64,000 nucleotides of DNA from positions 75,426-139,425 of the forward strand of contig CALWZC010000004.1 in assembly GCA_944385935.1 (NCBI GenBank), written 5' to 3'. Numbering within the stretch: the stretch's first letter is position 1; each line of letters begins with the position of its first letter. Origin of the DNA: an uncultured Anaerofilum sp. (GTDB lineage Bacteria; Bacillota; Clostridia; Oscillospirales; Ruminococcaceae). Shown here piece after piece: positions 2,413 to 38,723 of the stretch. Both the position numbers and the translations under genes were made by a program. The notes below the pieces were generated by a model. It did no database searches. It was not told the origin of the DNA and saw only the letters and a list, made by a program, of their open reading frames with translations.

Positions 2413-3951
2413 ATGACCAGTGAGCACATTATCATGAGTATCACAATTTTGGTTTACTTGGCAGGAATGTTATGGGTGGGGGTACTTTGCTCCAAACAGA
2501 ACAAAGATACCACAGATTTTTATTTAGGAGGAAGAAAGCTAGGGCCTTTGGTAACTGCTATGAGTGCAGAGGCCTCAGATATGAGTTCTTGGCTGCTAAT
2601 GGGATTGCCGGGATTGGCCTACCTAACAGGGGTGGCAGATGCTGGATGGACTGCCATTGGTCTTGCCATTGGAACCTATATCAACTGGTTCCTGGTGGCA
2701 AAACGGTTGCGGGTGTATACGCATATTGCAGGAAATGCCATCACCTTGCCGGATTTTTTCCACAACCGCTATCGGGATAAAAGCCGGTTGTTGATGTTGT
2801 TTTCCAGCTTAATGATAGTGTTGTTTTTTATTCCATACACAGCTTCAGGGTTTGCTGCTTGTGGCAAGTTGTTTTCTTCTCTATTTGGTGTGGACTACAC
2901 AACAGCTATGGTGGTTAGTGCCATAGTAATTGTGGGATACACAGCAACAGGTGGTTTTTTGGCAGCCTCCACCACCGATTTTATTCAGTCCTTAGTGATG
3001 TCGGTAGCCTTAGTTTTGGTGTTGCTGTTTGGAGTACACACAGCAGGGGGATGGTCTGTTGTAATGGAACGTGCAGCACAACTTCCCGGTTATTTGGGAA
3101 TGTTCCAAACCCATCAGCCAGAAACAGGCACCGCTGTGGCATATCCCGCTTTGAGTATGTTTTCTACCATTGCATGGGGACTAGGATATTTTGGAATGCC
3201 TCACATTTTATTGCGGTTTATGGCCATTGAGGACAAAGAAAAACTAACATTGTCCCGCCGCATTGCGACCATCTGGGTGGTAATTTCCTTGGCAGTGGGT
3301 GTGACCATTGGCATTGTGGGCATGGCTATGACAAAAACAGGTGTGTTGCCTGTGTTACAAGGAGCCTCTAGCGAAACAATTTTGGTGGTAATTGCGGATT
3401 TAATGAGTAAAAATGGATGGTTACTGGCGATTTTTGCAGGACTAATTTTAGCTGGAATCCTTGCCTCTACCATGTCCACAGCAGATTCTCAGCTATTGGC
3501 AGCCTCTAGTTCTGTTTCGCAAAACCTTTTGCAAGGAGTATTTCAGGTTCCCATCAACAAAAAAGCAGAAATGCTTTGTGCAAGAGGAACTTTAATTGCT
3601 ATTGCATTGTTGGGAATGTGGATTGCAAAAGACCCCAATAGCTCTATTTTTGGTATCGTTTCTTTTGCGTGGGCTGGTTTTGGTGCTTGTTTTGGCCCTG
3701 TCGTTATTATGGCTCTATTTTGGAAACGTTCCAACCGATGGGGGGCTTTGGCAGGAATGCTGGTGGGAGGAACTATGGTATTTGTGTGGAAATACCTTGT
3801 AATACCTTTGGGAGGTTTTTGGAATATTTATGAGCTTCTGCCGGCCTTTGTAGCTGCTTGCGTGGCTATCGTAGTAGTAAGCCTGTTGACAGCTCCACCG
3901 GAGAAAGAAATCTGCGTGGAATTTGACAAAGTTTGCAAAGAATGCCGCTGA
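2413..3951 (+). CDS. putP: sodium:proline symporter (SSS family)
   Basis: This is a 512-aa polytopic membrane protein. It carries SSS/PutP signatures (FYLGGRKLGP, GLPGLAY, GYLGMFQ…). Confidence 0.85.
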   Translation: MTSEHIIMSITILVYLAGMLWVGVLCSKQNKDTTDFYLGGRKLGPLVTAMSAEASDMSSWLLMGLPGLAYLTGVADAGWTAIGLAIGTYINWFLVAKRLRVYTHIAGNAITLPDFFHNRYRDKSRLLMLFSSLMIVLFFIPYTASGFAACGKLFSSLFGVDYTTAMVVSAIVIVGYTATGGFLAASTTDFIQSLVMSVALVLVLLFGVHTAGGWSVVMERAAQLPGYLGMFQTHQPETGTAVAYPALSMFSTIAWGLGYFGMPHILLRFMAIEDKEKLTLSRRIATIWVVISLAVGVTIGIVGMAMTKTGVLPVLQGASSETILVVIADLMSKNGWLLAIFAGLILAGILASTMSTADSQLLAASSSVSQNLLQGVFQVPINKKAEMLCARGTLIAIALLGMWIAKDPNSSIFGIVSFAWAGFGACFGPVVIMALFWKRSNRWGALAGMLVGGTMVFVWKYLVIPLGGFWNIYELLPAFVAACVAIVVVSLLTAPPEKEICVEFDKVCKECR

Positions 3952-3961
3952 AAAGTGCCAA

Positions 3962-4010
3962 AAAACTCTGGATTTTGAGCTAAATTGACATCAAAGTCCA
4001 GAGTTTTTTG
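3962..4010 (+). terminator. rho-independent terminator after putP
   Basis: Stem AACTCTGGA (3965-3973) pairs with TCCAGAGTT (3996-4004) and is followed by TTTTTT. An A-run lies upstream, so it may act in both directions. Confidence 0.7.
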
Positions 4011-4308
4011 TTGAATTTTTCATGAATAAATTATTAAATTTTACAAAAAATGGTACAAAATATTCCAAAAACACCAAAAATATACATGCAAAATGATATT
4101 TTTCTCACAAATAAAGGGGCAATTTGCGGGTTTGCGTGGAATTTCGTGTATTGAAGGCACAGTGGAATCTATCGTATAATGATGATGTTCCGAAATGCAA
4201 AGGAATAGTAAAAACTACACTACACCATGCAAGGTTGTATTTGTGGAAAAAGATGGATTTGCCTGCATGATGTAGAGATACTGTGTAAGAGTGGGCGGAG
4301 GATTTTTT

Positions 4309-4584
4309 ATGGAAACAAATTGCACTTTGATGTTGGAGAAAAGCTTTTCTCAGTTGGGCAAACTGCAAGACGAAATGCAGTTGCAGTACGCCATGAGTGT
4401 GCAACCCAATGGTGTAGAGTTTTGCGTTAGAAAAATACAAAACCACAACCAACAGTGGGAAAATAGCATGGTGGATGGATTGTCTTCAGAACAAGGAGAA
4501 CTGATTATAAACTTTATGCACCAAAATGCAGTTCCCTTTGAAAACTGGAGAGATATTCTGGAAGATTTGTTGTGCATTGTATAA
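4309..4584 (+). CDS. hypothetical 91-aa protein upstream of the spo0A-like regulator
   Basis: GGAGGA lies 7 nt upstream of ATG 4309. The composition is protein-like, and the overlapping antisense ORFs look spurious. No family was recognised. Confidence 0.35.
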   Translation: METNCTLMLEKSFSQLGKLQDEMQLQYAMSVQPNGVEFCVRKIQNHNQQWENSMVDGLSSEQGELIINFMHQNAVPFENWRDILEDLLCIV

Positions 4585-4725
4585 GGCAGCGGACCGGACT
4601 TTGAAAAAGGGCAACAGTAATATGTTTTGTCAGCAAGGGCTGCCCGTTTGGGTGGCTCTTTTTGCGTAGTAGCTCTTATGGGGCTGCTGGTGTAAAATGC
4701 CCATAGTAAAGGAGAGTAGAGTTTC

Positions 4726-5505
4726 ATGGCACAGGGCATTCGGGTACTTTTGGTGGAAGATAATTTGAATTTGGCAACTTTACAAGCACAAATGCTGAAA
4801 CTTCAACCCGAAAATTATCAGGTGCAGATAGCCTATACAGGGCAACAGGCAAAAGCTGCCTTGCAAGACTCTCTGCCAGATATTATTTTACTGGATTTAA
4901 CATTGCCTGCGCCAGATGGTCTTTCAATTTTGCGTTGGATGCAAACTCAGAAAAAGCCCATGCCACCAGTGATTGTCACTACCAGTTGCACCGAGGAAAG
5001 TGTTCAATGGGAGGCGTTGCGGCTGGGAGCAAAATATTTTATGATTAAGCCTTATCATTTGGATGATTTGTTAGGAAATATCCGAATGTTGCTACGAAAA
5101 CCTGCCAATGGATTTTTTGAATCTGGTATTCATCCAGAGAAAGTAGAATATCTACACCGTGTCAAAATGCTATTAAACCAGATGACCAGCCAAGTGGAAA
5201 GTGAAGGTTATCGCTATGTGTTGATGGCTATGGATAATTATTTTGACCATGGCAGACAGGGAATTTCCATCAAGGCATTAAGTGAAAAGGCAGGGCAACC
5301 TATAAACAACACCGGTGGAAATAATCTTATTGAGGCGGCAATTTATCGTTTGGTCTATCAAATTTGGAGAAAAAACTCTCCTGCATACCAACAGCTTTGC
5401 AGTTTTTGTGGATTGCCCAACGGAAGCCGAATGCCTGTCCGAAGATTTTTGTCTGCACTGGCACAGGTGGCACAAAGAGAACACACTTTGCCAAAGGAGA
5501 GGTAA
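4726..5505 (+). CDS. Spo0A-family response regulator (CheY-like receiver plus Spo0A_C-type DNA-binding domain, divergent)
   Basis: The receiver has the conserved E/D pair (VEDN), the phospho-acceptor Asp (ILLDLTLP), Thr (VTTS) and Lys (IKPY). The C-terminal half aligns to the Spo0A effector domain (…EGYRYVLMAM…, …LIEAAIYRLVYQIWRKN…, …LCSFCGLPN…), but the canonical recognition helix is not conserved. AAAGGAGAG lies 9 nt upstream of ATG 4726. Confidence 0.75.
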   Translation: MAQGIRVLLVEDNLNLATLQAQMLKLQPENYQVQIAYTGQQAKAALQDSLPDIILLDLTLPAPDGLSILRWMQTQKKPMPPVIVTTSCTEESVQWEALRLGAKYFMIKPYHLDDLLGNIRMLLRKPANGFFESGIHPEKVEYLHRVKMLLNQMTSQVESEGYRYVLMAMDNYFDHGRQGISIKALSEKAGQPINNTGGNNLIEAAIYRLVYQIWRKNSPAYQQLCSFCGLPNGSRMPVRRFLSALAQVAQREHTLPKER

Positions 5506-5506: not shown

Positions 5507-6301
5507 ATGAAGGCTGAGCAAAACAAAGAATTGTACCATCAAATGAAAATGGTGACTGCTGTTGCCTATGACCTGCGAGACCCTGCAACGGTAATTTTAA
5601 TGGCCAAAGATGCTCTGGAAAAGTTGGTCATTGCCCAGCTGCCAGAGAAGGATCAAAAAAAGGCACAGGGGCCTTTGCGATATATCGAAAAAAGTGTAAA
5701 CCGATTGGAAAGAATCAGCATGAATCTGTTGGATATTTCCCGCAGTTCCACAGGAGAACTAAAACCCCACTGGGAGTCGGTTTGTATTTCAGCAGCATGT
5801 AAAGAACTATGTGAAGAAGCCAGAGCTATGCGCCAAGGGAAAAATATTGTTTGCAGTGTTCCAAAACATCCTGTTGTTATACAAACAGATTGCTATTTTT
5901 TTGACCGCATTTTACTAAATCTCCTTAGCAATGCTATGACAGCTTGTCCAGAGGGCAAAATTTGGGTGGAATTGAAGGAATACTCCAATGAAGTGGTTTT
6001 AGTGGTAAAGGACAGCGGGCCGGGCTTGGATGCCCACCGCTTGCAAAGCCCTTTTGCACCAGTCTACCGCACCGAGGATTCTTCCATGCGTTTGGGGCTG
6101 TATATTTCAGATTTGTTGGCAAAGCAAATGTACGCAACCCTTAGCGCAGAAAATATGCCTAAAGGTGGAGCAAGGTTTGTGTTACGTATTCCTGTGGAAG
6201 AGCAAGGTGGACAACAAGCCTTTTGTGCTCCTGTTCGACAGGAACAACAAACCCGAAAGCGATATGTTGAAGCAGAGTTTTCTCTATTTGACCCAATGTA
6301 A
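5507..6301 (+). CDS. cytoplasmic histidine-kinase-like protein whose H-box His codon is TAT (Tyr); possible pseudokinase or phosphatase
   Basis: The start is ATG 5507, 1 nt after the spo0A-like stop (TAA 5503-5505), with AAGGAGAGG as RBS. The DHp motif reads VAYDLRDPATV where HisKA has H-E-L-R-T-P. The N-box (LLNLLSNAMTA), G1 (VKDSGPGLD) and G2 (GLGLYISDLLAK) are present. There are no TM segments. Confidence 0.7.
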   Translation: MKAEQNKELYHQMKMVTAVAYDLRDPATVILMAKDALEKLVIAQLPEKDQKKAQGPLRYIEKSVNRLERISMNLLDISRSSTGELKPHWESVCISAACKELCEEARAMRQGKNIVCSVPKHPVVIQTDCYFFDRILLNLLSNAMTACPEGKIWVELKEYSNEVVLVVKDSGPGLDAHRLQSPFAPVYRTEDSSMRLGLYISDLLAKQMYATLSAENMPKGGARFVLRIPVEEQGGQQAFCAPVRQEQQTRKRYVEAEFSLFDPM

Positions 6302-6339
6302 GGGTAAAGTCAGCAAAATATATCTTTTTCAAAAAGCCT

Positions 6340-6386
6340 TTGCCAGTAGTTTTGGTACAAGGGCTTTTTGCGGTTGTCGTAATTCC
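6340..6386 (+). terminator. possible terminator after the kinase-like gene
   Basis: CAAAAAGCCTTTG pairs with CAAGGGCTTTTTG with one mismatch, and a T-run follows. Confidence 0.4.
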
Positions 6387-24592: not shown

Positions 24593-24615
24593 ACATATTT
24601 CTCAAAGAAATATGT
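24593..24615 (+). promoter_or_regulatory. perfect 9-bp inverted repeat in mgtA promoter region (putative operator)
   Basis: ACATATTTC-tcaaa-GAAATATGT lies about 27 nt upstream of the mgtA ATG, between the guaA terminator and the RBS. Confidence 0.4.
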
Positions 24616-24641
24616 GTAAATAAAGAAAAGAGGATAGTGGT

Positions 24642-27299
24642 ATGGCAAAAAAGAACGTTGTAGAGGAAGCAAAAAAATCTGCTTATCAAACAGTAGAACA
24701 ACTGTGTCAACAACTAGAAATCACACCAAATGGTTTAAAAGAATCGCAAATAGAAACAATGCGACAAGGATATGGAGCAAATGTTTTTTACCAGAAAAAA
24801 AGAATGCGAGTTGTAAACGCTCTGGCAAAAGCATTTATCACTCCTTTTCATGGTATTCTGTTTTTATTGGCTGTAATATCTGTGACAACAGATGTGTTTG
24901 TAGGCCAGAATTTTGCGAGAAACACCAGTACGGCGTTTATTATTTTTGCAATGATTATCATTAGTGGTACAATCCGCTTGGTGCAAGAGTTACGGGCAAA
25001 GTATGCCGCAGACCAACTAGACAAGCTATTACATGGGAATGTTTTAGTAAAGCGAGATAACATCTGGAAAGAAATTCCCGCAGAAAAACTGGTTGTAGGG
25101 GATTTGGTTTCCTTTGCCGCAGGGGATAGAATCCCCGCAGATATACGCTTGACCCAGACAACAGACCTATTTATTTCTCAAGCTGCCATTACAGGGGAAA
25201 GTGCCATATTAGAAAAAAATAGTGATGTGGTGCCTCCTTTAGACAAAGGAGCTTTAACGGAAAAAAGCAATCTTGCCTTTACAGCCACAGTGGTGATAAG
25301 TGGAAAAGGGCAAGGCATTGTAGTAGCTGTGGGAGAAAATACCCTATATGGTAGTGCTGCAAAAACACAAGGAGCAAGAAAAAATTCCTTTCAAAAAGGA
25401 GCAAACTCCATTGCTTGGGTTATGCTGCGATTTATGGCTGTTTTAATACCTATTGTATTTGTTGTAATTGGTATTACAGGAGGAAAATGGGCAGAATCTC
25501 TTGCCTTTGCCCTTTCGGTGTCGGTGGTGCTAATTCCCGAAATGCTCCCTATGGTCATTACTGCCTGCCTCGACAAAGGTAGCCTTTCTATGAGCAAAAA
25601 GCAAACCATTGTAAAAAATATCAATGCCATGCAGAGCTTTGGCAGTATGGATGTACTTTGCATGGATAAGACGGGAACCTTGACCAATGAAAGCATTTTG
25701 CTGGAGTACTATATGGATGTGTTGGGCAACGAAAAGCCCAAGGTGCTGGATTTTGCCTATCTAAACAGTAGTTATCATTCTGGTGTGCGCAATCCCATTG
25801 ATAACGCCATTCTTGCTTGTCATACAATGCCCAATAAACAACAGCATTTTTGCAACCTAACAAAGCAGTATCACAAAATGGATGAAATCCCTTTTGATTA
25901 TACCCGAAAAATAGCAAGTGTTCTTGTACAAGATAATACAGGTAGCTGTGAAATGATTGTAAAAGGGGATATTGAGGAGGTAGTTCGACGCTGTACGTCC
26001 ATTGAGTATCAGGGGCAAGTATTGCCAATGGAAAACCAAAGCATGGAAAATGTATGGTCTGTGGTGGAAGAAATGCTGCAAGATGGAATGAAAGTAATTG
26101 CAGTAGCCAGCAAGCCTATCTGTGGTCAAACCATTTGCCAAAAGGATGAACAAGAATTGACCTTGATGGGGTACATTGCATTTTTTGATGCACCAAAAGC
26201 CACAGCCAAAGAATCTATAAAAGCATTGCAAAAGTTGCAGGTTGCCCCCAAAATACTTACAGGAGATAAAGCACAGGTTGCAATGTCCATCTGTCGGCGT
26301 GTGGGAATTTCTCCACAGGGACTGCTAACAGGAGCACAACTGGAAGAATTAACAGAACAACAGCTCGTTGACGCCGTGCAGAGAGTGAATGTATTTGCCG
26401 AGCTTACCCCCAGCCAAAAGGTGAGCTTGGTTGCCGCTTTGCAAAAAAACAATCACACGGTGGGATTTTTGGGGGATGGAATCAATGATATTCCTGCTAT
26501 GAATCAAGCTGATGTGGGAATTTCGGTGGATACCGCAGTGGATGCCGCAAAAGAGGCGGCAGATGTGGTGTTGCTGCAAAAGGATTTGAATGTTTTGGAA
26601 CAGGGAATTTTGGAGGGCCGCAGGATTTTTACCAACATGCTAAAGTACATAAAAATTACTGCCAGTTCCAATTTTGGAAACATTTTGTCCATTGTTTGTG
26701 CCAGTGCCTTTTTGCCTTTTTTGCCCATGACATCCATTCAGATTCTCTTACTCAACCTGTTGTATGACACTCTATGTATTGTTTTACCTTGGGATGCAGT
26801 AGATGATGAGGCTATTGCTTGCCCAAAGGAATGGAATGGAAAAACACTGGGACGTTTTATGAGATGGTTTGGCCCAATTAGCTCTTTGTTTGATATTGGA
26901 ACATTTGTGTTTTTATACTATATTATTTGCCCTATGTTGTGTGGGGGACAGCTATACCACACCATTTCAGACAGAGCATTGCAAATGCAATACATTGCTG
27001 TTTTTCAAACAGGGTGGTTTTTGGAATCCATGTGGACACAGATTTTGATTTTACACTTTTTGCGAACACCTAAAATTCCTTTTATCCAAAGTAGACCTTC
27101 TATTCCTGTTGTCTGTATCACCTTTGTTGGGCTTCTTGTCTTGACAGCACTTCCCTTTGTGGCAACAGGGGCATTGTTTGGGTTTACAAAACTTCCTTTT
27201 TGGTATTTTGGATTTTTGGCAGTGACAGCATTGTGTTATATGATATTAAGTACATTATGTAAATCCCGCTATCAAAAAAAATATCAGGAGCTTATCTAA
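24642..27299 (+). CDS. mgtA: Mg2+-importing P-type ATPase
   Basis: The 885-aa product has P-type ATPase motifs (DKTGTLT, TGD, GDGINDIPAMNQADVGISV) and the characteristic MgtA C-terminal membrane domain. AAAGAGGAT lies upstream. Confidence 0.9.
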   Translation: MAKKNVVEEAKKSAYQTVEQLCQQLEITPNGLKESQIETMRQGYGANVFYQKKRMRVVNALAKAFITPFHGILFLLAVISVTTDVFVGQNFARNTSTAFIIFAMIIISGTIRLVQELRAKYAADQLDKLLHGNVLVKRDNIWKEIPAEKLVVGDLVSFAAGDRIPADIRLTQTTDLFISQAAITGESAILEKNSDVVPPLDKGALTEKSNLAFTATVVISGKGQGIVVAVGENTLYGSAAKTQGARKNSFQKGANSIAWVMLRFMAVLIPIVFVVIGITGGKWAESLAFALSVSVVLIPEMLPMVITACLDKGSLSMSKKQTIVKNINAMQSFGSMDVLCMDKTGTLTNESILLEYYMDVLGNEKPKVLDFAYLNSSYHSGVRNPIDNAILACHTMPNKQQHFCNLTKQYHKMDEIPFDYTRKIASVLVQDNTGSCEMIVKGDIEEVVRRCTSIEYQGQVLPMENQSMENVWSVVEEMLQDGMKVIAVASKPICGQTICQKDEQELTLMGYIAFFDAPKATAKESIKALQKLQVAPKILTGDKAQVAMSICRRVGISPQGLLTGAQLEELTEQQLVDAVQRVNVFAELTPSQKVSLVAALQKNNHTVGFLGDGINDIPAMNQADVGISVDTAVDAAKEAADVVLLQKDLNVLEQGILEGRRIFTNMLKYIKITASSNFGNILSIVCASAFLPFLPMTSIQILLLNLLYDTLCIVLPWDAVDDEAIACPKEWNGKTLGRFMRWFGPISSLFDIGTFVFLYYIICPMLCGGQLYHTISDRALQMQYIAVFQTGWFLESMWTQILILHFLRTPKIPFIQSRPSIPVVCITFVGLLVLTALPFVATGALFGFTKLPFWYFGFLAVTALCYMILSTLCKSRYQKKYQELI

Positions 27300-27306
27300 A
27301 AGGGGG
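26977..27306 (+). repeat. copy A of a diverged segmental duplication (mgtA 3' end, stop and following RBS)
   Basis: The nucleotide and protein similarity to 27691..28020 is clear (e.g. GGTGGTTTTTGGAATCCATGTGGAC vs GGCTGGTTTGTAGAATCCATGTGGAG). Both copies end stop-AAGGGGG. Confidence 0.5.
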
Positions 27307-27315
27307 TGTTGTGGA

Positions 27316-28014
27316 TTGAAACAGAAAATCAGCTTTGTTCCTTTGGATGCAGACTTGCAACTTTGGCTATTGGAAAAATTGTTAAAGGAGCCACCCCAAA
27401 GCCCCTACACAGCAGAGTTTTTGCAAGGGGTTCGCAATCTAATTTGTGGACAAACGAGCTCGCTACTTCTAGGAAGTCCTGAACAAAAGGGAGTAGTGGA
27501 ACAGGGATTGTCCGAAAGCATTGTAGTGGGAGAGTTGGAAATATCCCCTAAAAATAGAAAGGTCATCCTACAAGGGAAAGAGATAAGCCTCACCCCAAAA
27601 GAATTTGATATTTTGTATTTTTTGGTGGAAAATAGGGGAGGAGTGTTATTCAACGACTTGCCTGCCCATTTTAGTGGAGCAGAGTTGGCAGCGGTACAAG
27701 CAAAATATATCGGGCTATTTCAAGCCGGCTGGTTTGTAGAATCCATGTGGAGCCAAACATTGGTGATTCACATGATTCGTACCCCAAAATTGCCTTTCTT
27801 GCAAAGCCGAGCTTCTGCACCTGTCACACTGCTTACCATGGCGGGAATTGTGGTGCTTACTATCATTCCTTTCACTGGTTTTGGTGCTATGCTAGGATTT
27901 ACTTCTTTGCCCATTGTTTATTTTGCTTATCTCATTCCTTGCATTGTGCTGTATATGGCTTTGGCAACCAGCTTGAAAAAAGCCTACGTTCGCCACTATG
28001 GAGAATTGCTATAA
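27316..28014 (+). CDS. chimeric membrane protein: truncated OmpR-type winged-helix domain fused to a paralogue of MgtA TM9-10
   Basis: Residues ~60-115 match trans_reg_C (IVVGELEISPKNRKVILQGKEISLTPKEFDILYFLVENRGGVL). Residues ~120-232 align with the MgtA C-terminus (FQAGWFVESMWSQTLVIHMIRTPKLPFLQSRAS… vs FQTGWFLESMWTQILILHFLRTPKIPFIQSRPS…). The start is TTG, 10 nt after AAAAGGGGG and 17 nt after the mgtA stop. Confidence 0.55.
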   Translation: MKQKISFVPLDADLQLWLLEKLLKEPPQSPYTAEFLQGVRNLICGQTSSLLLGSPEQKGVVEQGLSESIVVGELEISPKNRKVILQGKEISLTPKEFDILYFLVENRGGVLFNDLPAHFSGAELAAVQAKYIGLFQAGWFVESMWSQTLVIHMIRTPKLPFLQSRASAPVTLLTMAGIVVLTIIPFTGFGAMLGFTSLPIVYFAYLIPCIVLYMALATSLKKAYVRHYGELL

Positions 28015-29521: not shown

Positions 29522-30145
29522 ATGAAAGGGCTATTGCTAAAAGATTTTTACATGACAATCAAATATGGTAAAACTTTGTTTCTGGTGGTCTTGGTTTTTT
29601 GGGCAATTTCTTGTTTTGATGATGGGGGAAGTTTTTTCCTGGTATACCCTATGATTTTAGCCGGAGTGCTTCCAATGTCCCTGATTTCTTTGGATGAACG
29701 GGAAAAATGGGTACAATACAGCGGAACATTGCCGTATACCAGAGCACAGTTAGTATCTTCAAAATATATCATAGGGCTTTTGTTGGGCGTTGGAGCATTT
29801 ATTCTTTCTATGGCGACTACTGCTGGCCGTATGTGGATGAATGGATATTTTTCTTTGTTAGAGTTTGGAACAATAGCCTCTCTTCTTCTTGTGTTGGGGT
29901 TGTTGCCGCCCACCATTTTACTGCCCTTTGTTTTCAAATTTGGAGCAGAAAAAGGCAGAATCATGTTTTATGTGGTGATTGGCTTGGCAACTGCTATTGG
30001 TACTTTATTGGCAGGGTTTGGATTTCAAATGCAGATGCAGACCAATGAATTTGCAATACTATTTGTAATGTGCACTGTGGCAGTATTGTTATATCTTGGC
30101 TCTTGGTGCCTTTCCGTTGCTTTTTATAAAAAACGAGAATTATAA
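29522..30145 (+). CDS. ABC-2-type membrane protein
   Basis: Six TM helices are predicted. AAGGAG lies 10 nt upstream, and the gene is the third member of the GntR-ABC operon. Confidence 0.6.
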   Translation: MKGLLLKDFYMTIKYGKTLFLVVLVFWAISCFDDGGSFFLVYPMILAGVLPMSLISLDEREKWVQYSGTLPYTRAQLVSSKYIIGLLLGVGAFILSMATTAGRMWMNGYFSLLEFGTIASLLLVLGLLPPTILLPFVFKFGAEKGRIMFYVVIGLATAIGTLLAGFGFQMQMQTNEFAILFVMCTVAVLLYLGSWCLSVAFYKKREL

Positions 30146-30309
30146 TGTACAAAAAGGTTTTGTTTTTTCAAAAAGAGAACAGAACCTTTTTCTTTTGGTG
30201 TATTTTTCTGACAAAATGCCCTCTTTTTGCTAAAGTTCTGTTCACAAGTGAACAGAAATATGGTAGAATTACAAAAACATCTATCCATGACAAAGGAGGG
30301 AAAGCATCA

Positions 30310-31506
30310 ATGGACTTGACACAAGAAAAAGTGGAAAATTTTGTGTGCGAGAATTGCGGCGGAACATTAAAATGGAATATAGCAAAAAAGCAATTGGAGT
30401 GTGGGTCTTGTCACACTCCCTATACTCTGCAACAGGAATCTGTTATACAAGAGCATCCCTTTGAGGAATATCATCAGCGTGAGCAGCGAACAGAAGCATT
30501 TCCTGATGAAACAGTGGTAAAGTGTAACTCTTGTGGTGCAGAAGTAGTGTTTGATAGAGATGACACGGCAAAGGTCTGCCCTATGTGTGGGGCAACTCAG
30601 ATTTTGCCACAAAAGCAGGTGCAAGGTGTTCCACCAGATGGAGTTTTGCCCTTTGAAATAGATAAACAGGCAGCCCAGCAAAAATTTAAAAAATGGGTAA
30701 GAAGTCGTTGGTTTGCCCCCAATAAGCTAAAAACCGTTTACCAAGAGGGAAAACTGAATGGGGTGTATATTCCTTTCTGGACCTTTGACACACAAGCAAA
30801 TGGCGAGTACCATGGTAGAGGTGGCAAGGAGCATGTTCGAGAGGACAAAGACGGCAACAGACGTGTGGAAGTTCGTTGGATACCTGTAAGCGGGCATGTG
30901 GGAAAATTTTTTGATGATATCCAAATTTCTGCCTCCATGGGACAGGTGAATGAGGTTGTAGATAAGGTTTTACCCTATTCTACACAAACAAAGCTACATG
31001 GATATTCTCCTATGTATCTTTCGGGATTTTCGGCAGAACGATATGCCATTCCAGCAACACAGGCCGCCGAAACCATGAAAGAGAAAGTTCGGCGAGAGTT
31101 GAAACGGATGGCAGAGGAGGATATTCGGTCAAGAGGGTTTGACCGAGCAGATGTACAACACTTGAAACTGGATTTAGAAGATACTACCTATAAGCAAGTG
31201 TTGTTACCTGCATGGTTTTCTTCCTATGCCTACGGAAAAAAGCAGTATATGTACATTATCAATGGTGAGACCGGCGAAGTAGGAGGACAGAGGCCTTATA
31301 GCATCCCCAAAATTGCAGCGGCTGTTGTGGCTGCACTTGCGTTGGTGGGGCTAATTGTTTGGGGCTCTTCCGAAAAAACAGAGGCAGCCGTTTTTGCCAC
31401 ACCAACCACAGAGGTGGTTTATCAGCAGGAACAACCTGCAAATACAATTTTGATGAAAGAAGGAAATGCAAATGGCTTGGTTTGGACAAGGAAAGGACAC
31501 AATTGA
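30310..31506 (+). CDS. zinc-ribbon-containing membrane-anchored protein (hypothetical; partner of SPFH protein)
   Basis: There are two N-terminal CxxC…CxxC ribbons (CENCGG…CGSC; CNSCGA…CPMCG) and a C-terminal TM segment (IAAAVVAALALVGLIVWG). AAGGAGGG lies upstream of ATG 30310. Confidence 0.5.
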   Translation: MDLTQEKVENFVCENCGGTLKWNIAKKQLECGSCHTPYTLQQESVIQEHPFEEYHQREQRTEAFPDETVVKCNSCGAEVVFDRDDTAKVCPMCGATQILPQKQVQGVPPDGVLPFEIDKQAAQQKFKKWVRSRWFAPNKLKTVYQEGKLNGVYIPFWTFDTQANGEYHGRGGKEHVREDKDGNRRVEVRWIPVSGHVGKFFDDIQISASMGQVNEVVDKVLPYSTQTKLHGYSPMYLSGFSAERYAIPATQAAETMKEKVRRELKRMAEEDIRSRGFDRADVQHLKLDLEDTTYKQVLLPAWFSSYAYGKKQYMYIINGETGEVGGQRPYSIPKIAAAVVAALALVGLIVWGSSEKTEAAVFATPTTEVVYQQEQPANTILMKEGNANGLVWTRKGHN

Positions 31507-32882: not shown

Positions 32883-33206
32883 ATGAGTAATGAAACAAAT
32901 GTTTTGTTACAGTCGGTGTTGGAAATGGACCGGCAAGAACGGCTACGCACACAGGAGGCGGAGGACTACCGTGGAAAGGCCATGGCTCAGCTGGAGGACA
33001 GCCGTAAGGACATTCACCAAAAACACCAGCAGTTGGCACAGCAAAAAATAGAAGCATATACCCAACAGGAAAATGAACGTATGCAACAAACCTTGCAGAC
33101 CTTACAACAAAAAAGTGCAGCAGTAAAGCAAACACTAAACGCCACAAAGTCTGCCAAACAGGAACAATGGGTAGAAACAATTTTTGAGCGTGTTTTGGAA
33201 AGGTGA
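32883..33206 (+). CDS. V/A-type ATPase small coiled-coil subunit (G/H-like)
   Basis: The 107-aa all-helical charged protein is the first gene of the operon. GAAAGGGGTG lies upstream. Confidence 0.5.
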   Translation: MSNETNVLLQSVLEMDRQERLRTQEAEDYRGKAMAQLEDSRKDIHQKHQQLAQQKIEAYTQQENERMQQTLQTLQQKSAAVKQTLNATKSAKQEQWVETIFERVLER

Positions 33207-33214
33207 GGCGTTTT

Positions 33215-34273
33215 ATGGCAATTCCTTCCTTTGGTTCAAATGCAGTGTTGGCAAAGTGCCGTGCAATGTATGGCAAAAGCCTGACTGCTCGCAATTATAC
33301 AGAGTTGCTTGCCTGCCATACTGTGCCGGAAGTAGCAGCTTACTTGAAAACAAAAACCCATTATGCTTCTTGTTTGTCGGGGGTTACTCCTCAAGTAATT
33401 CACCGTGAACAGTTGGAAATTTTATTAAAGCGGTATCTGTTTGGACAATATGCTGCCCTTAGTCGATATGAAATTAGCTTAGGGCAGGATTTTTATTCCT
33501 ATTTTGTGGTAAAAAGCGAACTGGAAATGGTTTTAGCACAACTGCATAAAATCAATGCACAGGAACATATCCCTGTTATGGGCGCAGAGCCTGATTTTGT
33601 AAAAAAGTTTTCTCAGCTAAATGAAAGCAAAATTTCCTCTGCAAATAATCTCATGCAGTTGGCACACGCTTTGGATGGCACTCCCTATGGCAAAATTATT
33701 CATTCCTTTGTGGAAAAAACAACTTTTGATTTGCAAAGAGATGGCACATTGGAAATTGAAGCAGCCTTGATGGACTACGAGTATAGTGTCATGGAGGAGC
33801 TTTCCCAGAAACATCTAAAAGGAAAACAGTTGCAAGAAGTACTGGAAATTTTGAAACGTCAAAGCGATGTACAGGCAATTATCAATATGTTCCGTATGAA
33901 GAAGATGTTGCAATCTCCCAGTATGTATGTACGGCGCAGAGTTTCCATGCAACACACACAGCTTTCTTCTCAAAAAATCAATCAGCTTTTGGATGCGGAA
34001 AATGAGGAAGATTTTGTACGGGTGCTAAAAACTACCAGCTATGGAAAAGAACTGGCAAAGGTGGCATACGACTATATTGAAGAGGGAATGCAAAAGGTGC
34101 AGTACCATTTTCATTTAAAAAAATTCCGTTTTTCCACCAATCCCAGTGCAGTTATGCTGTGCTATTTGTTTTTGGCAGAAAATGAATTGACCAATGTTAC
34201 CCACATTATAGAGGGCATTCGATATGGAATGTCGCCAGAAGAAATTGAACGTCTTTTGGTAGGAATCCAGTGA
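33215..34273 (+). CDS. ntpC: V/A-type ATPase subunit C (d)
   Basis: The protein is about 350 aa and has an AC39-like helical architecture with a family-typical C-terminal region. The RBS is AAAGGTGAGG. Confidence 0.7.
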   Translation: MAIPSFGSNAVLAKCRAMYGKSLTARNYTELLACHTVPEVAAYLKTKTHYASCLSGVTPQVIHREQLEILLKRYLFGQYAALSRYEISLGQDFYSYFVVKSELEMVLAQLHKINAQEHIPVMGAEPDFVKKFSQLNESKISSANNLMQLAHALDGTPYGKIIHSFVEKTTFDLQRDGTLEIEAALMDYEYSVMEELSQKHLKGKQLQEVLEILKRQSDVQAIINMFRMKKMLQSPSMYVRRRVSMQHTQLSSQKINQLLDAENEEDFVRVLKTTSYGKELAKVAYDYIEEGMQKVQYHFHLKKFRFSTNPSAVMLCYLFLAENELTNVTHIIEGIRYGMSPEEIERLLVGIQ

Positions 34274-34290
34274 GGAAGGAGAGGTAAACC

Positions 34291-35253
34291 GTGTTTTTTG
34301 ATGAAAAAATACAGTTGGTATGGGTGGATGGCTCGGTGCAGCTTTTGGAAAGTTTTGTACAGAAGTGTTGCATGGGGGATGAACGTGTACATCCTACCAC
34401 AGCCAGCGATAAAATGAGCGCAGGCATGGGCTTTGCCCCCCCAGAAATAGAAAATAATTGGGCGCAGCGCATTGAGGAAATGGAACAGATGGCCCAAGGG
34501 CTGGAACTTCCAGTGGTAGAGCCTGCTTTTGAGGATGCTCGTTCTCCCAAATTGGATGGATATTTGCAGCGAGTCAAAACCGCTTTGGATGAGAAACGGA
34601 ATATTCTGAAAGATTTGGAGGCACAACAGGTTTTGTGTCAGCAGGGCATAGAGCAATTTTCCCATTTTGAAGAACTGGATGTGGATTTGAGCAAAGCTCT
34701 TGAATGTGAATACATTTCCATCCGTTTTGGAAAACTGCCCAAAGCTGGGTTTGAAACTCTGTTGAGGGAACACGGCGATGACCCTTATGTGTTCTTTATT
34801 CGGTGCAGCGAAGACAAGGATTTTTACTGGGGAATGTATTTTGCTCCCCGTGAAAAACGAGCTTTGGTAGATGGTATCTTTGCAGGCTTGTACTTTGAAC
34901 GAGTACGGTTGCCCGGTGCAGGGGGAACCCCAAAAGAAATTGTAGAAAATCTTCAACACAATGTAGAGATTTTGCGCAGCCAAATTTTGCAAGCACAAGA
35001 CCAACTACAACAGGTATGGGGAGCAGAAAAATGGCGTTGCGCTGGTATTTATGCCTCTTTTTGCAGTTTGGCCCGTGTAGCAGAGTTGTGCAAGTGTGCT
35101 GCTGTGCGGGGAGAGCATTTCTTCTATGCAGTATGGGTGGAACAAACTGCTATGGAAGCCTTTGTATCTCGCTGCGAATCTGTGGGCAAACTGCATATGG
35201 CAATGGATATGACCCTTCCCAGAAAGAAATGGAAACAGCTCCATCAGCAATAA
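34291..35253 (+). CDS. stand-alone paralogue of the cytoplasmic N-terminal domain of V-ATPase subunit I
   Basis: The 320-aa product is collinear with residues 1-~330 of the downstream subunit I (IQLVWVDGSVQLLESFVQKCC vs MKLVRVDGLLSQLDDFILRCC; YISIRFGKLP…DDPYVFFIRCSEDKDFYWGMYFAP…DGIFAGLYFER vs YINIRFGFLP…DDPYVFFVPCSQENGGYWGLYFTP…DGIFSMLYFER). It has no TM domain. A GTG start lies 9 nt after GAAGGAGAGG. Confidence 0.6.
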   Translation: MFFDEKIQLVWVDGSVQLLESFVQKCCMGDERVHPTTASDKMSAGMGFAPPEIENNWAQRIEEMEQMAQGLELPVVEPAFEDARSPKLDGYLQRVKTALDEKRNILKDLEAQQVLCQQGIEQFSHFEELDVDLSKALECEYISIRFGKLPKAGFETLLREHGDDPYVFFIRCSEDKDFYWGMYFAPREKRALVDGIFAGLYFERVRLPGAGGTPKEIVENLQHNVEILRSQILQAQDQLQQVWGAEKWRCAGIYASFCSLARVAELCKCAAVRGEHFFYAVWVEQTAMEAFVSRCESVGKLHMAMDMTLPRKKWKQLHQQ

Positions 35254-35294
35254 CGGCGGCTTATACCGCATGAGAAAGGACGATGAACTGATTC

Positions 35295-37226
35295 GTGGCC
35301 ATTGAAAAAATGAAGCTCGTCCGAGTGGATGGGCTGCTCAGTCAGTTGGATGATTTTATCCTGCGATGTTGCATTAATGGTGATTTTCAACCTGAACCTG
35401 CTATCCAGTATATGTCTGCTTCCAGTAAAAACATGTCCTTGGTGGAGGAAAACCCCTATCCACCTATGGTGCAGGCAGTAGAAGAATTGTTTGCTCTGGC
35501 AGAATATACCCCCCAAGAGGATAATAAAACCGAAAAAGAACGTACCATAGACCCCAAAGCCTTGGAAGCAGTGCAAACTGTAAAAGAAGAGTTGAAAGTT
35601 TTACAGCAACAGCAAAAAACACAACAGCGAGAACTGGCACAGCTTCAAGAGCGCAGCAACCAATATTCCCACTTTGAGTCGTTGGAAACTCCCCTAGAGG
35701 AACTGGAGGCGACAAAGTATATCAATATCCGTTTTGGATTTTTGCCGGGAGAGAGCTATCAAAAAATGCAGACCAGTTATGCAGATGACCCTTATGTATT
35801 TTTTGTGCCTTGCAGTCAGGAAAATGGCGGATATTGGGGATTATACTTTACCCCTCATCGGGTAGCAGATGAGATTGATGGCATTTTTTCCATGCTGTAC
35901 TTTGAGAGAATTTCTTTGGAAAACGATACTGGTACAGTAAAAGAAATTATGCAAAAGCTGCAAACACAAATCGACCAGTTGCAGCAAGAACTGGACAAAA
36001 CCAATGCAGCCATACAAAAGTTGTGGGAAGAAAATAAAGAATATTGCATTGGTGTGTACAGCCAGTTGAAATGGTTAGACCAAGTGTTTGAACTGCGGCA
36101 TTATGCAGCTTATCGGGATAACTATTTCTTCTATGTGGGATGGATTCCTGAAAGAGCTGTGCCAGAGTTTAGCAAGCAGGTAAAATCTCTGCGCAATATG
36201 AAAATTACCGTTACCGACCCCAGCAAACAGGACAAAATTGCTCCGCCGGTAAAGTTAAGGAACCTTTTACCCTTCCGGCCCTTTGAGATGTTTGTTGGAA
36301 TGTATGGCCTTCCCAGTTATGGAGAAATGGACATCACCGAATTTGTTGCCATTACATTTACTTTATTGTTTGGCATTATGTTTGGTGATATGGGACAGGG
36401 AGCTGTGCTTGCCATTGGTGCCTTTATCCTGTATAAGTGGAAGGGTATTGCTTTGGCGAAACTGGTTATTCCTTGTGGAATTTCTTCCATGTTCTTTGGG
36501 TTCATTTTCGGTTCGGTATTTGGATTTGAACATTTGCTAGACCCGGTATACCACGCCTTAGGCTGGAAAGGAAAGCCACTGGAAGTAATGGAATCCATCA
36601 ACACAGTGCTATTGGTTGCCATTGGTATTGGTGTTTCCTTGGTAATTGCTTCTATGTTGCTAAATGTTGTCGCTTCTGCACGAAAAGGACATTGGGGAGA
36701 GGCTATCTTCTCCAACAATGGTTTGGTAGGATTGGCAGTGTATATTTCTGGTGTAAACCTAGTAAGTGGATTTATGGGCGGCCCCAGCCCCATCCCTGCG
36801 CAAGTGGGACAATTCCTCATTGGTGCTGGTCTGGTTTTGCTGTTCTTTAAAGAGGTGCTGGTAGGTAAATTTGACGGGCACCCCGACTGGAAACCAGAAA
36901 GCTGGAGCGACTATGCTATGCAGAACTTGTTTGAACTACTGGAATATGTGCTTTCTTATTTTTCAAACACTGTTTCCTTCTTGCGTGTAGGTGCTTTCGT
37001 AATTGTCCATGCTGCTATGATGATGGTGGTATTTAGTCTGGCAGGAGACCCTGCAAACCCTGTGGTTGTGGTATTGGGCAATGCTTTGGTAATCTGTTTG
37101 GAAGGTTTGCTGTCTGGTATTCAGGGATTGCGTTTGGAATTCTATGAAATGTTTAGCCGCTGCTATGAGGGCGGTGGACGTCCTTTCCGGGGAGTTCGTC
37201 TTGCACCGGAAAAACAAAAGCACTAA
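35295..37226 (+). CDS. ntpI: V/A-type ATPase subunit I (a)
   Basis: The 643-aa product has an N-terminal cytoplasmic domain followed by about eight TM helices. A GTG start gives MAIEKMKLVRV. Confidence 0.85.
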   Translation: MAIEKMKLVRVDGLLSQLDDFILRCCINGDFQPEPAIQYMSASSKNMSLVEENPYPPMVQAVEELFALAEYTPQEDNKTEKERTIDPKALEAVQTVKEELKVLQQQQKTQQRELAQLQERSNQYSHFESLETPLEELEATKYINIRFGFLPGESYQKMQTSYADDPYVFFVPCSQENGGYWGLYFTPHRVADEIDGIFSMLYFERISLENDTGTVKEIMQKLQTQIDQLQQELDKTNAAIQKLWEENKEYCIGVYSQLKWLDQVFELRHYAAYRDNYFFYVGWIPERAVPEFSKQVKSLRNMKITVTDPSKQDKIAPPVKLRNLLPFRPFEMFVGMYGLPSYGEMDITEFVAITFTLLFGIMFGDMGQGAVLAIGAFILYKWKGIALAKLVIPCGISSMFFGFIFGSVFGFEHLLDPVYHALGWKGKPLEVMESINTVLLVAIGIGVSLVIASMLLNVVASARKGHWGEAIFSNNGLVGLAVYISGVNLVSGFMGGPSPIPAQVGQFLIGAGLVLLFFKEVLVGKFDGHPDWKPESWSDYAMQNLFELLEYVLSYFSNTVSFLRVGAFVIVHAAMMMVVFSLAGDPANPVVVVLGNALVICLEGLLSGIQGLRLEFYEMFSRCYEGGGRPFRGVRLAPEKQKH

Positions 37227-37320
37227 GTGCTACTAAATGTTTGCCATGTTTCGCACATTGTGCGATATGGAAAGTGAAAATCACTTTTATAAAATCTTTT
37301 ATCATTTGGAGGAAGAATCT

Positions 37321-37773: not shown

Positions 37774-37795
37774 GCCGGAAGGAAGGCGAAATCCA

Positions 37796-38104: not shown

Positions 38105-38114
38105 GGTGTAAAGG

Positions 38115-38708: not shown

Positions 38709-38723
38709 AACGAGGTGTAAGCG

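What the first reader, a model, noticed from the sequence alone, without database searches (positions are those of the whole stretch)
4726..5505. Divergent Spo0A-family response regulator with non-canonical recognition helix
The protein has an intact receiver domain and a C-terminal domain collinear with the Spo0A effector domain. The otherwise near-invariant Spo0A DNA-recognition region is replaced by GGNNLIEAAIYRLVYQIWRKN. The genomic context (putP and a small ORF upstream, a kinase-like gene downstream) is not the usual spoIVB-spo0A arrangement. The gene is either a highly diverged Spo0A or a Spo0A_C-family paralogue with different target sites, so its regulon is unpredictable.
Basis: partly seen in the sequence, partly recalled or inferred. 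Interest (0 to 1): 0.6.

Follow-up and report, generated by a model that had tools for sequence, protein, structure and literature searches.

The report
Diverged Spo0A-like regulator with degenerate kinase
This gene encodes a response regulator whose output domain has the fold of the sporulation master regulator Spo0A but almost none of its sequence, and it sits in a conserved three-gene operon with a kinase-like protein lacking its phosphorylatable histidine, found only in a small group of gut Ruminococcaceae.

Summary
ORF 4726-5505 (+) encodes a 259-aa protein with an intact receiver domain. Its closest known relatives are Spo0A receivers.

The near-invariant Spo0A helix SRVERAIRHAIEVAW reads NLIEAAIYRLVYQIW. 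Only the Glu and Trp are kept; Arg211, Arg214 and Arg217 are replaced.

The gene is the middle of a conserved operon:
- an uncharacterised 91-aa protein (4309-4584);
- the regulator;
- a sensor-less kinase core (5507-6301), translationally coupled, with Tyr where the phospho-His should be. Orthologues have H, Y, C or K there.

The cassette occurs only in Anaerofilum. A more degenerate form occurs in Gemmiger/Subdoligranulum-type genomes, usually next to pyrH-frr.

The C-domain is under strong purifying selection (dN/dS about 0.1).

A conserved promoter carries two tandem 10-bp units ending in CGTR. This is a candidate autoregulatory site.

Whether a canonical spo0A co-exists in the genome could not be tested.

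Verdict: a real, new variant of a known kind, of moderate interest.

The parts
4129..4148 (+). Candidate operator. Two tandem 10-bp units, GGTTTGCGTG and GAATTTCGTG, each ending in CGTR, abut the -35 element. This is inferred, not demonstrated.
   Evidence: The same arrangement at the same distance from the -10 element is seen in orthologous loci L008, L012, L014 and L005. It is weaker in L013 and absent or unclear in L010. The exact motif GAAWWWCGTRTA occurs only once in the 64-kb window, here.
4151..4180 (+). Predicted sigma-70-type promoter of the cassette: -35 TTGAAG, 18-nt spacer, -10 TATAAT.
   Evidence: Consensus scan, 10 of 12 matches. The -10 TATAAT and the -35 position are conserved in 6 orthologous loci.
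4309..4584 (+). Conserved 91-aa protein of unknown family, the first gene of the cassette.
   Evidence: A homologue lies directly upstream of the regulator in every locus examined. Alignment A5 has invariant F13, S14, L16, Q20, Y27, N73, E78 and L84. There was no significant Pfam, PDB-sequence or PADLOC match.
4726..5100 (+). Receiver (REC) domain of the regulator, residues 1-125, with phospho-acceptor D57.
   Evidence: Pfam Response_reg E=7.6e-20. The best PDB sequence and fold matches are Spo0A receivers. E11, D12, D57, T/S86 and K108 are conserved.
5134..5505 (+). Spo0A_C-like six-helix output domain, residues 137-259. The predicted recognition helix is residues 201-216 (LIEAAIYRLVYQIWRK), encoded at about 5326-5373.
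5507..6301 (+). Sensor-less histidine-kinase-like protein (DHp + CA, 264 aa), translationally coupled to the regulator. It has Tyr21 at the canonical phospho-His position.
   Evidence: HATPase_c E=1.6e-17 and a weak HisKA match. Y21 aligns with the His of SHDLRTPL in KdpD (6lgq) and in 8u4x. Orthologues carry H, Y, C or K at this column, while the N-box, G1 and F motifs are invariant. The regulator's TAA stop at 5503-5505 is followed by the kinase ATG at 5507.
6333..6369 (+). Likely intrinsic terminator of the cassette: a 10-bp stem, a 15-nt loop and a T run.
   Evidence: Read directly from the sequence. The scan tool did not report it because its loop limit is 8 nt. This is my own inference.

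Best explanation
The gene encodes a Spo0A-derived response regulator. It has a phosphorylation-competent receiver fused to a strongly diverged but selectively maintained Spo0A_C-type helix-turn-helix domain.

It is the middle gene of a three-gene operon: small 91-aa protein, regulator, cytoplasmic kinase-like ATPase. The operon is specific to an Anaerofilum / Gemmiger-Subdoligranulum branch of Ruminococcaceae.

I infer that it is a lineage-specific paralogue-type offshoot of Spo0A and not the sporulation master regulator itself. I infer that it acts as a transcription factor whose DNA specificity differs from the 0A box. The Arg residues of the Spo0A recognition helix are replaced (R211->L, R214->A, R217->Y), while Glu213 (E203) and Trp224 (W214) are kept.

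A plausible target is its own promoter, where two head-to-tail 10-bp units ending in CGTR abut the -35 element. This geometry is like tandem 0A boxes.

The partner kinase-like protein cannot autophosphorylate on the canonical His in this genome, because that position is Tyr21. D57 is therefore probably phosphorylated by another donor. The partner and the small protein more likely modulate the regulator by binding or dephosphorylation than by classical His-Asp transfer.

Shown here: gene structure, domain identity, predicted fold, loss of signature residues, cassette conservation, purifying selection and the His-to-Tyr change. Inferred: DNA binding, the operator, autoregulation, and the roles of the partner and the small protein.
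For: - Receiver: Pfam REC E=7.6e-20. Spo0A receivers are the best PDB hits by sequence and by fold, and TIGR02875 is the best NCBIfam model. tblastn with B. subtilis Spo0A aligns residues 2-264 across the whole ORF.
- Transitive homology: the family profile hits only 3 close plus 5 marginal representatives among 1.84 billion proteins. The marginal ones are REC-like + Spo0A_C-like proteins, and one passes the Pfam Spo0A_C cutoff at 31.5 bits. hhalign gives family versus these at 98.8%, E=4.7e-17. They occupy the same cassette next to pyrH-frr.
- Signature loss: canonical Spo0A_C keeps SRVERAIRHAIEVAW invariant in 26 diverse sequences. The family has NN(P/L)(V/I)EAA(I/L/M)YRL(V/I)..IW. A single R211E change abolishes sporulation in B. 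subtilis (PMC13577027).
- Function maintained: dN/dS of the C-domain is 0.08-0.11.
- Operon: cassette conserved in different flanking contexts. Stop and start are 1 nt apart.
- Promoter and repeats conserved.
- Degenerate kinase.
Against: - Direct sequence evidence for Spo0A_C is not significant. Pfam gives 13-15 bits against a cutoff of 25. hhalign against canonical Spo0A_C gives probability 1.4%. My own canonical HMM gives about 0 bits. The family profile finds no Spo0A chain in PDB by sequence.
- The fold evidence comes from a prediction built on a 14-sequence alignment, not from a solved structure.
- The helix-turn-helix has a 2-residue longer, Gly/Asn/Pro-rich, low-confidence turn (residues 189-200, pLDDT 53-69). 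DNA binding is therefore not assured.
- The operator is supported by only about 3 independent lineages and is not evident in L010. One-mismatch copies elsewhere in the window are no more frequent than chance.
- Paralogy is unproven, because I could not test whether the same genome has a canonical spo0A. The base-contact roles of E213, R214 and R217 are recalled from the 1LQ1 paper and were not verified here.
Confidence: 0.6

Rival explanations
1. It is the lineage's true Spo0A orthologue. After this Ruminococcaceae branch lost sporulation, it was released from constraint and re-purposed, diverging beyond HMM recognition.
For: - Both domains are most similar to Spo0A and collinear with it.
- No other spo0A lies in the 64 kb window.
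- Anaerofilum, Gemmiger and Faecalibacterium were reported to lack spore-protein genes (PMC6069880).
- A 'highly degraded' spo0A is reported in an asporogenous Macrococcus (bioRxiv 10.1101/2022.02.25.481979).
- In the Gemmiger-type copies even the receiver pocket has degenerated.
Against: - The gene always comes with its own kinase-like gene and a small gene. It usually sits next to pyrH-frr, not next to spoIVB.
- The same paper states that the remaining sporulation genes are present in Anaerofilum, which would fit a separate canonical spo0A.
- Strong purifying selection shows a defined function, not decay.
- spo0A paralogues are already known in Clostridiales.
Confidence: 0.22
2. The Spo0A_C-like domain no longer binds DNA. 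The three proteins form a protein-protein switch, such as a partner-switching or thiol/redox module, in which the kinase-like ATPase and small protein act on the regulator without His-Asp transfer or transcription.
For: - The phospho-His is absent in 4 of 6 Anaerofilum orthologues and not conserved in the Gemmiger type. The ATP-binding motifs stay invariant.
- The receiver acidic pocket is degenerate in the Gemmiger type.
- The Arg residues of the recognition helix are lost.
- The helix-turn-helix turn is enlarged.
- Cys residues are invariant in the regulator (C88, C225, C228) and in the kinase-like protein (C93, C98, C102, C147).
Against: - The recognition-helix segment is the most conserved part of the C-domain. 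E203, A205, Y207, R208, L209, I213 and W214 are invariant, and R208 is kept even in the Gemmiger type.
- Receiver catalytic residues are fully conserved in Anaerofilum.
- There is a conserved repeat-bearing promoter.
- No homology to STAS or anti-sigma partners was found.
Confidence: 0.13
3. The C-terminal half is an unrelated helical domain. The Spo0A_C resemblance is an artefact of weak alignment plus a structure predictor trained on 1FC3/1LQ1.
For: All direct sequence comparisons with canonical Spo0A_C are non-significant. The alignment used for prediction was shallow at 14 sequences.
Against: - All five models score pLDDT about 86, and the helix boundaries match those from an 8-sequence full-length run.
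- Every weak alignment, from Pfam, hhalign and tblastn, gives the same register.
- A positional orthologue, P0074, passes the Pfam Spo0A_C cutoff.
Confidence: 0.05

Closest known systems
Spo0A, the sporulation master regulator (B. subtilis / G. stearothermophilus; PDB 1QMP/1DZ3 receiver, 1FC3/1LQ1 effector domain; TIGR02875; Pfam PF08769)
   Same: - Same two-domain order and similar length (259 against 267 aa).
- Its receiver is the closest known relative by sequence and by fold.
- Conserved landmarks: G161-Y162 (Spo0A G172-Y173), G179/K183 (G191/K195), E203 (E213), W214 (W224), P237 (P247), F241 (F252).
   Different: - About 13-16% identity in the effector domain, below the Pfam and TIGRFAM cutoffs.
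- Signature SRVERAIRHAIEVAW is lost (R211L, R214A, R217Y, H218R).
- The sigma-A-activating segment SSLFGYTV is replaced by LCxxCG.
- The helix-turn-helix turn is 2 residues longer.
- It is encoded with its own kinase-like gene and a small gene, instead of being an orphan next to spoIVB.
- It is found in a group reported as lacking spore proteins.
Paralogous spo0A genes of Clostridiales (10 of 118 Spo0A+ genomes with two copies, Anaerostipes hadrus with three; Galperin et al., bioRxiv 10.1101/2022.02.25.481979)
   Same: They are additional Spo0A-type regulators in Clostridia, including asporogenous species.
   Different: Those paralogues were recognised as spo0A by standard models. This family is annotated only as 'response regulator' or 'hypothetical protein'. 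It is far more diverged and travels in a fixed three-gene cassette. I did not compare the sequences directly.
Pseudo-histidine kinases such as Caulobacter DivL, which has Tyr in place of the phospho-His (recalled from memory, not tested here)
   Same: The partner protein keeps DHp and CA domains with ATP-binding motifs but has Tyr at the H-box His position.
   Different: There is no sensor or PAS domain and no membrane anchor. The residue varies (H/Y/C/K) among close orthologues. There is no evidence that it binds the phosphorylated regulator.

Membership tests
Spo0A proper (NCBIfam TIGR02875 equivalog) | Whole-protein score at or above the curated cutoff (200 bits), covering both domains | tested here: not met
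   The score is 80.3 bits. Only residues 5-127 align, to model positions 3-126 of 262.
Spo0A proper (NCBIfam TIGR02875 equivalog) | Receiver domain with acidic pair, phospho-Asp, Thr/Ser and Lys | tested here: met
   E11, D12, D57, T86 and K108 align to the Spo0A catalytic residues and are conserved in the family.
Spo0A proper (NCBIfam TIGR02875 equivalog) | Near-invariant recognition-helix signature SRVERAIRHAIEVAW | tested here: not met
   The signature is invariant in 26 diverse canonical sequences. Here it reads NLIEAAIYRLVYQIW, and only E, A, I and W match.
Spo0A proper (NCBIfam TIGR02875 equivalog) | Usual gene context: orphan regulator downstream of spoIVB (established knowledge) | tested here: not met
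   In the window the gene lies between a small ORF and a kinase-like gene, flanked by putP and miaB. In relatives the cassette lies next to pyrH-frr.
Spo0A proper (NCBIfam TIGR02875 equivalog) | Binds the 0A box TGTCGAA and controls entry into sporulation | not testable with these tools
   This needs DAP/ChIP-seq and genetics. The candidate operator units (..TTCGTG) share only the TTCG core with the 0A-box complement TTCGACA.
Pfam Spo0A_C (PF08769) domain family | HMM score at or above the gathering threshold (25 bits) | tested here: not met
   13.0 bits (E=0.11) for the full-length protein and 15.3 bits (E=0.02) for the C-domain alone. Only 1 of 8 members matches at all.
Pfam Spo0A_C (PF08769) domain family | Six-helix Spo0A effector fold containing the helix-turn-helix | tested here: met
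Pfam Spo0A_C (PF08769) domain family | Demonstrable sequence homology, direct or transitive | tested here: inconclusive
   Direct hhalign gives probability 1.4%. The transitive chain holds: family to Gemmiger-type group at 98.8%, E=4.7e-17; group member P0074 passes Pfam Spo0A_C at 31.5 bits and is a positional orthologue.
Classical HisKA two-component pair | Phospho-acceptor His in the H-box of the kinase | tested here: not met
   Y21 aligns to the His of SHDLRTPL in two solved kinases. Orthologues have H, Y, C or K at this column.
Classical HisKA two-component pair | Catalytic ATP-binding domain with N, G1 and F boxes | tested here: met
   HATPase_c E=1.6e-17. N138/N142, D169-x-G171-x-G173 and F183 are invariant. 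The G2 box is reduced.
OmpR/PhoB, NarL/FixJ, LytTR and other common response-regulator output families | Recognisable output-domain HMM match | tested here: not met
   No Trans_reg_C, GerE, LytTR or other output-domain hit appears in Pfam at E up to 1.

The most novel reading that the evidence does not exclude
This would be a Spo0A-derived signalling module that has left classical His-Asp phosphotransfer behind.

In a lineage of former spore-formers, a copy of the sporulation master regulator was captured in a fixed trio with a histidine-less, cysteine-rich kinase-like ATPase and a novel small protein. The module now works as a different kind of switch, for example thiol/redox or partner binding. 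It controls a non-sporulation regulon through a new DNA motif.
Probability: 0.2. Interest if true: 0.7.

Novelty: new variant of a known kind. Interest (0 to 1): 0.5.

Why it matters
The Spo0A effector domain is regarded as one of the most conserved DNA-binding domains in Firmicutes. Its presence or absence is used to call sporulation ability in gut genomes.

This family shows that the fold can persist under purifying selection with the recognition signature rewritten, invisible to the standard HMMs. Genome surveys would score these genes as plain 'response regulators'.

It offers three things:
- a natural experiment on how Spo0A-type DNA specificity can be re-coded;
- a testable case of what happens to sporulation regulators in lineages that stop sporulating;
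- an example of a kinase partner drifting through H/Y/C/K at the phospho-acceptor site while the rest of the protein stays conserved.

The organisms are gut Ruminococcaceae related to Faecalibacterium, Gemmiger and Subdoligranulum. The regulon could therefore bear on gut colonisation or oxygen tolerance.

Tried and rejected
- **Direct sequence searches.** The C-domain profile against PDB sequences found no Spo0A chain. My own HMM of 26 canonical Spo0A_C sequences gave about 0 bits for family members. hhalign of the family against canonical Spo0A_C gave probability 1.4%. Direct sequence homology is therefore not demonstrable, and I relied on fold and the transitive chain.
- **Full-length model against PDB.** The search was swamped by receiver hits, so I re-predicted the C-domain alone.
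- **afdb50 fold library.** It was not available.
- **Third homologue search.** The search with the combined C-domain alignment returned only two Gemmiger-type fragments and added nothing.
- **Defence-system hypothesis.** PADLOC gave only receiver-level noise. Rejected.
- **Riboswitch or leader RNA.** Rfam gave only spurious miRNA hits on the putP terminator hairpin. The 141-nt spacer fold has a z-score of -1.0. Rejected.
- **Small protein identity.** Pfam and PDB profile searches gave only weak, inconsistent hits such as aphrodisin and BTB. It remains unknown.
- **Regulon prediction.** One-mismatch copies of the operator unit are not enriched in the window: 5 found against 2.4 expected.
- **Canonical spo0A in Anaerofilum.** Literature and supplement searches gave no per-genome answer.
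- **DNA-contact residues of Spo0A.** I could not find the list in the held papers, so the E213/R214/R217 roles are from memory.

Full report
**1. Checking the observation**

ORF 4726..5505 (+) exists as described. It has an ATG start and encodes 259 aa, and its translation contains GGNNLIEAAIYRLVYQIWRKN. A Shine-Dalgarno-like AAGGAGAG precedes the start.

Pfam finds a receiver domain at residues 7-119 (E=7.6e-20). It also finds a nearly full-length but sub-threshold match to Spo0A_C: residues 147-246 align to model positions 2-101 of 104, at E=0.11 and 13 bits against a 25-bit cutoff.

The best NCBIfam model is TIGR02875 (Spo0A), but it covers only the receiver and scores 80 bits against a 200-bit cutoff. 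The best PDB sequence matches are Spo0A receiver domains, 1dz3 and 9phz at E=1.4e-19, ahead of ArlR and PmrA at about 1e-15. The alignment shows the acidic pair, D57, T86 and K108 in place.

- a putP-like SSF transporter at 2413-3951;
- a small ORF whose conserved start is 4309;
- a HisKA/HATPase_c protein at 5507-6301.

**2. Is the C-terminal half a Spo0A effector domain?**

Direct sequence evidence is weak.
- Only 1 of 8 family members reaches even E=0.02 against Pfam Spo0A_C.
- A family profile finds no Spo0A chain in the PDB.
- An HMM I built from 26 canonical Spo0A C-domains gives family members about 0 bits. The B. subtilis sequence in that set was verified as identical to 1LQ1.
- hhalign of the family against canonical Spo0A_C gives probability 1.4%. 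The aligned register is nevertheless the expected one.

Structure prediction decides the question. The C-domain alone (residues 130-259, 14-sequence alignment) folds with pLDDT 86.3 and pTM 0.82 into six helices. Their boundaries are identical to those in the independent full-length model.

Foldseek against the PDB returns seven Spo0A effector-domain chains (1lq1, 1fc3) as the top seven hits. They have probability 0.98-1.00 and TM 0.57-0.75. Everything else has probability of 0.15 or less.

A transitive chain of homology agrees with this.
- An exhaustive HMMER search of 1.84 billion representatives with the C-domain profile finds only 3 close and 5 marginal hits.
- The marginal ones are REC-like + Spo0A_C-like proteins, and one of them (P0074) passes the Pfam Spo0A_C cutoff.
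- hhalign links them to the family at 98.8%, E=4.7e-17.
- They sit in the same gene cassette.

tblastn with full-length B. subtilis Spo0A aligns residues 2-264 across the whole ORF.

I conclude that the domain is a strongly diverged Spo0A_C-type domain. The caveat is that the fold is predicted, not solved.

**3. The recognition helix**

All alignments (Pfam, hhalign, MAFFT, HMM on P0074) give one register. The mapping from Spo0A to this protein is:

| Spo0A | S210 | R211 | V212 | E213 | R214 | A215 | I216 | R217 | H218 | A219 | I220 | E221 | V222 | A223 | W224 |
|---|---|---|---|---|---|---|---|---|---|---|---|---|---|---|---|
| This protein | N200 | L201 | I202 | E203 | A204 | A205 | I206 | Y207 | R208 | L209 | V210 | Y211 | Q212 | I213 | W214 |

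In 26 diverse canonical sequences this segment is invariant. In the family E203, A205, Y207, R208, L209, I213 and W214 are invariant.

The three arginines are therefore gone. Published work shows that R211E alone abolishes sporulation in B. subtilis (PMC13577027). The crystal structure is reported to show specific contacts with G2, C4 and G5 of TGTCGAA (PMC3485338). That E213, R214 and R217 make those contacts is my recollection of the 1LQ1 paper, and I did not verify it here.

The turn of the helix-turn-helix is two residues longer, rich in Gly, Asn and Pro, and predicted with low confidence (residues 189-200).

The segment that in Spo0A activates sigma-A (SSLFGYTV, a role recalled from memory) reads LCSFCG. 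C225 and C228 are invariant in the eight sequences of alignment A1, all taken to be Anaerofilum-type, though only two clusters carry Anaerofilum names.

**4. A functional gene, not a relic**

Nei-Gojobori dN/dS for unsaturated orthologue pairs is 0.08-0.11 for the C-domain and 0.15-0.24 for the receiver. The effector domain is thus the more constrained half.

**5. The surroundings: a three-gene cassette**

The same trio appears in every locus recovered: a roughly 90-aa protein, the regulator, and a roughly 265-aa soluble kinase-like protein. The flanks differ:
- window: putP ... miaB-ylbF-mutS-mutL;
- L005, L014, L010 and L013: upstream of pyrH-frr;
- L008: after lrgAB.

In the window the regulator's TAA (5503-5505) is followed one base later by the kinase ATG (5507), with an RBS inside the regulator's 3' end. 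A hairpin with a T-run follows the kinase gene at about 6333-6369.

The small protein has no detectable relatives outside the cassette.

**6. The kinase-like partner**

The partner has no sensor domain. Its DHp H-box reads A-Y-D-L-R-D-P. Y21 aligns exactly with the phospho-His of SHDLRTPL in KdpD (6lgq) and 8u4x.

Among six Anaerofilum orthologues that column is Y, Y, C, K, H and H, and no other His is conserved. The N, G1 and F boxes, four cysteines (C93, C98, C102, C147) and a C-terminal Q..R.....AEF tail are invariant. The Gemmiger-type partners also lack a conserved His.

Classical autophosphorylation and transfer to D57 is therefore unlikely in this genome. The receiver's catalytic residues remain perfectly conserved, so phosphorylation from another donor is plausible.

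By analogy with pseudo-kinases such as DivL (from memory), the partner may bind or dephosphorylate the regulator. This is inference.

**7. Taxonomic range**

A scan of one genome per GTDB species finds the family only in four Anaerofilum MAG species. NCBI names members only 'response regulator' or 'hypothetical protein', for example Anaerofilum sp. An201 WP_087290544.1.

The diverged positional orthologues come from contigs whose PyrH and Frr are named Gemmiger or uncultured Subdoligranulum. In most of them Pfam no longer detects a significant receiver, and P0071 has lost the acidic pair.

One study of chicken-gut isolates reports that Anaerofilum, Faecalibacterium and Gemmiger lack spore-protein genes but keep other sporulation genes (PMC6069880).

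The 64-kb window holds no second spo0A and no sporulation-specific gene. It carries housekeeping genes, a V-ATPase operon and tig-clpP-clpX.

Whether a canonical spo0A lies elsewhere in the genome could not be tested, so orthologue versus paralogue remains open. I favour a paralogue-type offshoot for three reasons:
- the fixed cassette;
- the non-spoIVB position;
- spo0A paralogues are already documented in Clostridiales (bioRxiv 10.1101/2022.02.25.481979).

**8. A candidate binding site**

Upstream of the small gene is a sigma-70-like promoter: TTGAAG, 18 nt, TATAAT, at 4151-4180. Its -10 element and -35 position are conserved in orthologous loci.

Abutting the -35 are two head-to-tail 10-bp units ending in CGTR:

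| Locus | Distal unit | Proximal unit |
|---|---|---|
| window | GGTTTGCGTG | GAATTTCGTG |
| L014 | GAAAAACGTT | GAATTTCGTA |
| L005 | GAAATACGTT | GAAATTCGTA |
| L008 | GCTCTGCGTA | GAAAAACGTG |

The exact extended unit occurs once in the window.

The 10-bp head-to-tail phasing next to the -35 resembles how tandem 0A boxes are arranged (my recollection of the 1LQ1 paper). The units share TTCG with the 0A-box complement TTCGACA.

This is a hypothesis resting on about three independent lineages. L010 shows no clear copy.

**9. Verdict**

What is new beyond it:
- the fold-level proof;
- the cassette with a conserved unknown small protein;
- the histidine-less partner;
- the narrow Ruminococcaceae distribution, including a more degenerate Gemmiger-type form;
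- the strong selection on the rewritten effector domain.

It is a new variant of a known kind, a Spo0A-type response regulator, and not a new class. Interest is moderate at 0.5. It would interest specialists in two-component signalling and in the evolution of sporulation loss. Its function and regulon remain unknown.

Noticed in passing
window 5507-6301 (+); orthologues in L010, L012, L013, L014, L005: The kinase-like partner has Tyr21 at the canonical phospho-His position. Close orthologues have H, Y, C or K there, while the ATP-binding motifs stay invariant. A conserved C-terminal tail Q248..R250.....A256-E257-F258 follows the CA domain.
   Followed up: yes
window 4309-4584 (+): A 91-aa protein with no detectable family is conserved directly upstream of the regulator in every locus, including the Gemmiger type. 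Its invariant residues are F13, S14, L16, Q20, Y27, N73, E78 and L84.
   Followed up: partly
regulator residues C88, C225, C228 (window about 4987-4989, 5398-5409); kinase-like residues C93, C98, C102, C147: There are invariant cysteines in both proteins. The regulator has LCxxCG where Spo0A has its sigma-A-activating segment. The kinase-like protein has C-x4-C-x3-C plus a fourth Cys. This may be a thiol, metal or redox site in an oxygen-sensitive anaerobe.
   Followed up: no
L015 4713-6652; L017 2737-4413: Gemmiger/Subdoligranulum-type contigs carry a positional orthologue of the cassette next to pyrH-frr-cdsA-dxr. In L015 it has the full three-gene form. In L017 no small ORF was called upstream. 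The L015 regulator (P0071 cluster) no longer scores as a Pfam REC domain and has lost the acidic pair, while the L017 regulator (P0074) still has a REC hit (33 bits). Neither partner has a conserved His.
   Followed up: partly
window about 4635-4664 (+): A hairpin of about 11 bp followed by UUUUUG lies in the 141-nt spacer between the small gene and the regulator. This spacer is much longer than in other loci (0-69 nt). It could be a partial internal terminator. The overall fold z-score is not significant (-1.0).
   Followed up: partly
window 3949-4022: The putP terminator hairpin gives weak, spurious Rfam matches to plant and animal miRNA precursor families (E=0.007-0.9, far below the gathering scores).
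   Followed up: yes
window 24642-28014 (+): A P-type cation ATPase (885 aa) is followed immediately by a 232-aa ORF that matches only the Cation_ATPase_C domain. This may be a duplicated or split C-terminal fragment. A one-mismatch copy of the operator unit (GAAATATGTGTA, 24607-24618) lies just upstream of the ATPase start and is probably chance.
   Followed up: no
window 58775-61252 (-): An 825-aa fusion protein combines pyridine nucleotide-disulphide oxidoreductase, rhodanese, TusA and DsrE-like domains. It is one of the few large genes on the minus strand.
   Followed up: no
window 30145-31506, 34291-35253 and 62387-63478 (+): ORFs of 453, 320 and 363 aa have no Pfam match at E <= 1e-5 (453 aa) or 1e-6 (320 and 363 aa). 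The 320-aa one lies inside the V-type ATPase operon (33203-42542).
   Followed up: no
whole window: Nearly all large genes are on the + strand, and GC skew is positive from about 2 kb to 58 kb (cumulative skew rises steadily). This fits a leading-strand segment. An MCP gene (54043-55914) suggests a motile organism.
   Followed up: no
literature (PMC6069880, supplement file 3): Anaerofilum sp. An201, which carries a family member, has far higher values (8.74, 8.74, 8.13, 7.48) than the neighbouring Clostridiales rows, mostly 0 in the last two columns, in what appears to be the paper's air-exposure survival table; the column headings were not read. This has no demonstrated link to the cassette.
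   Followed up: no
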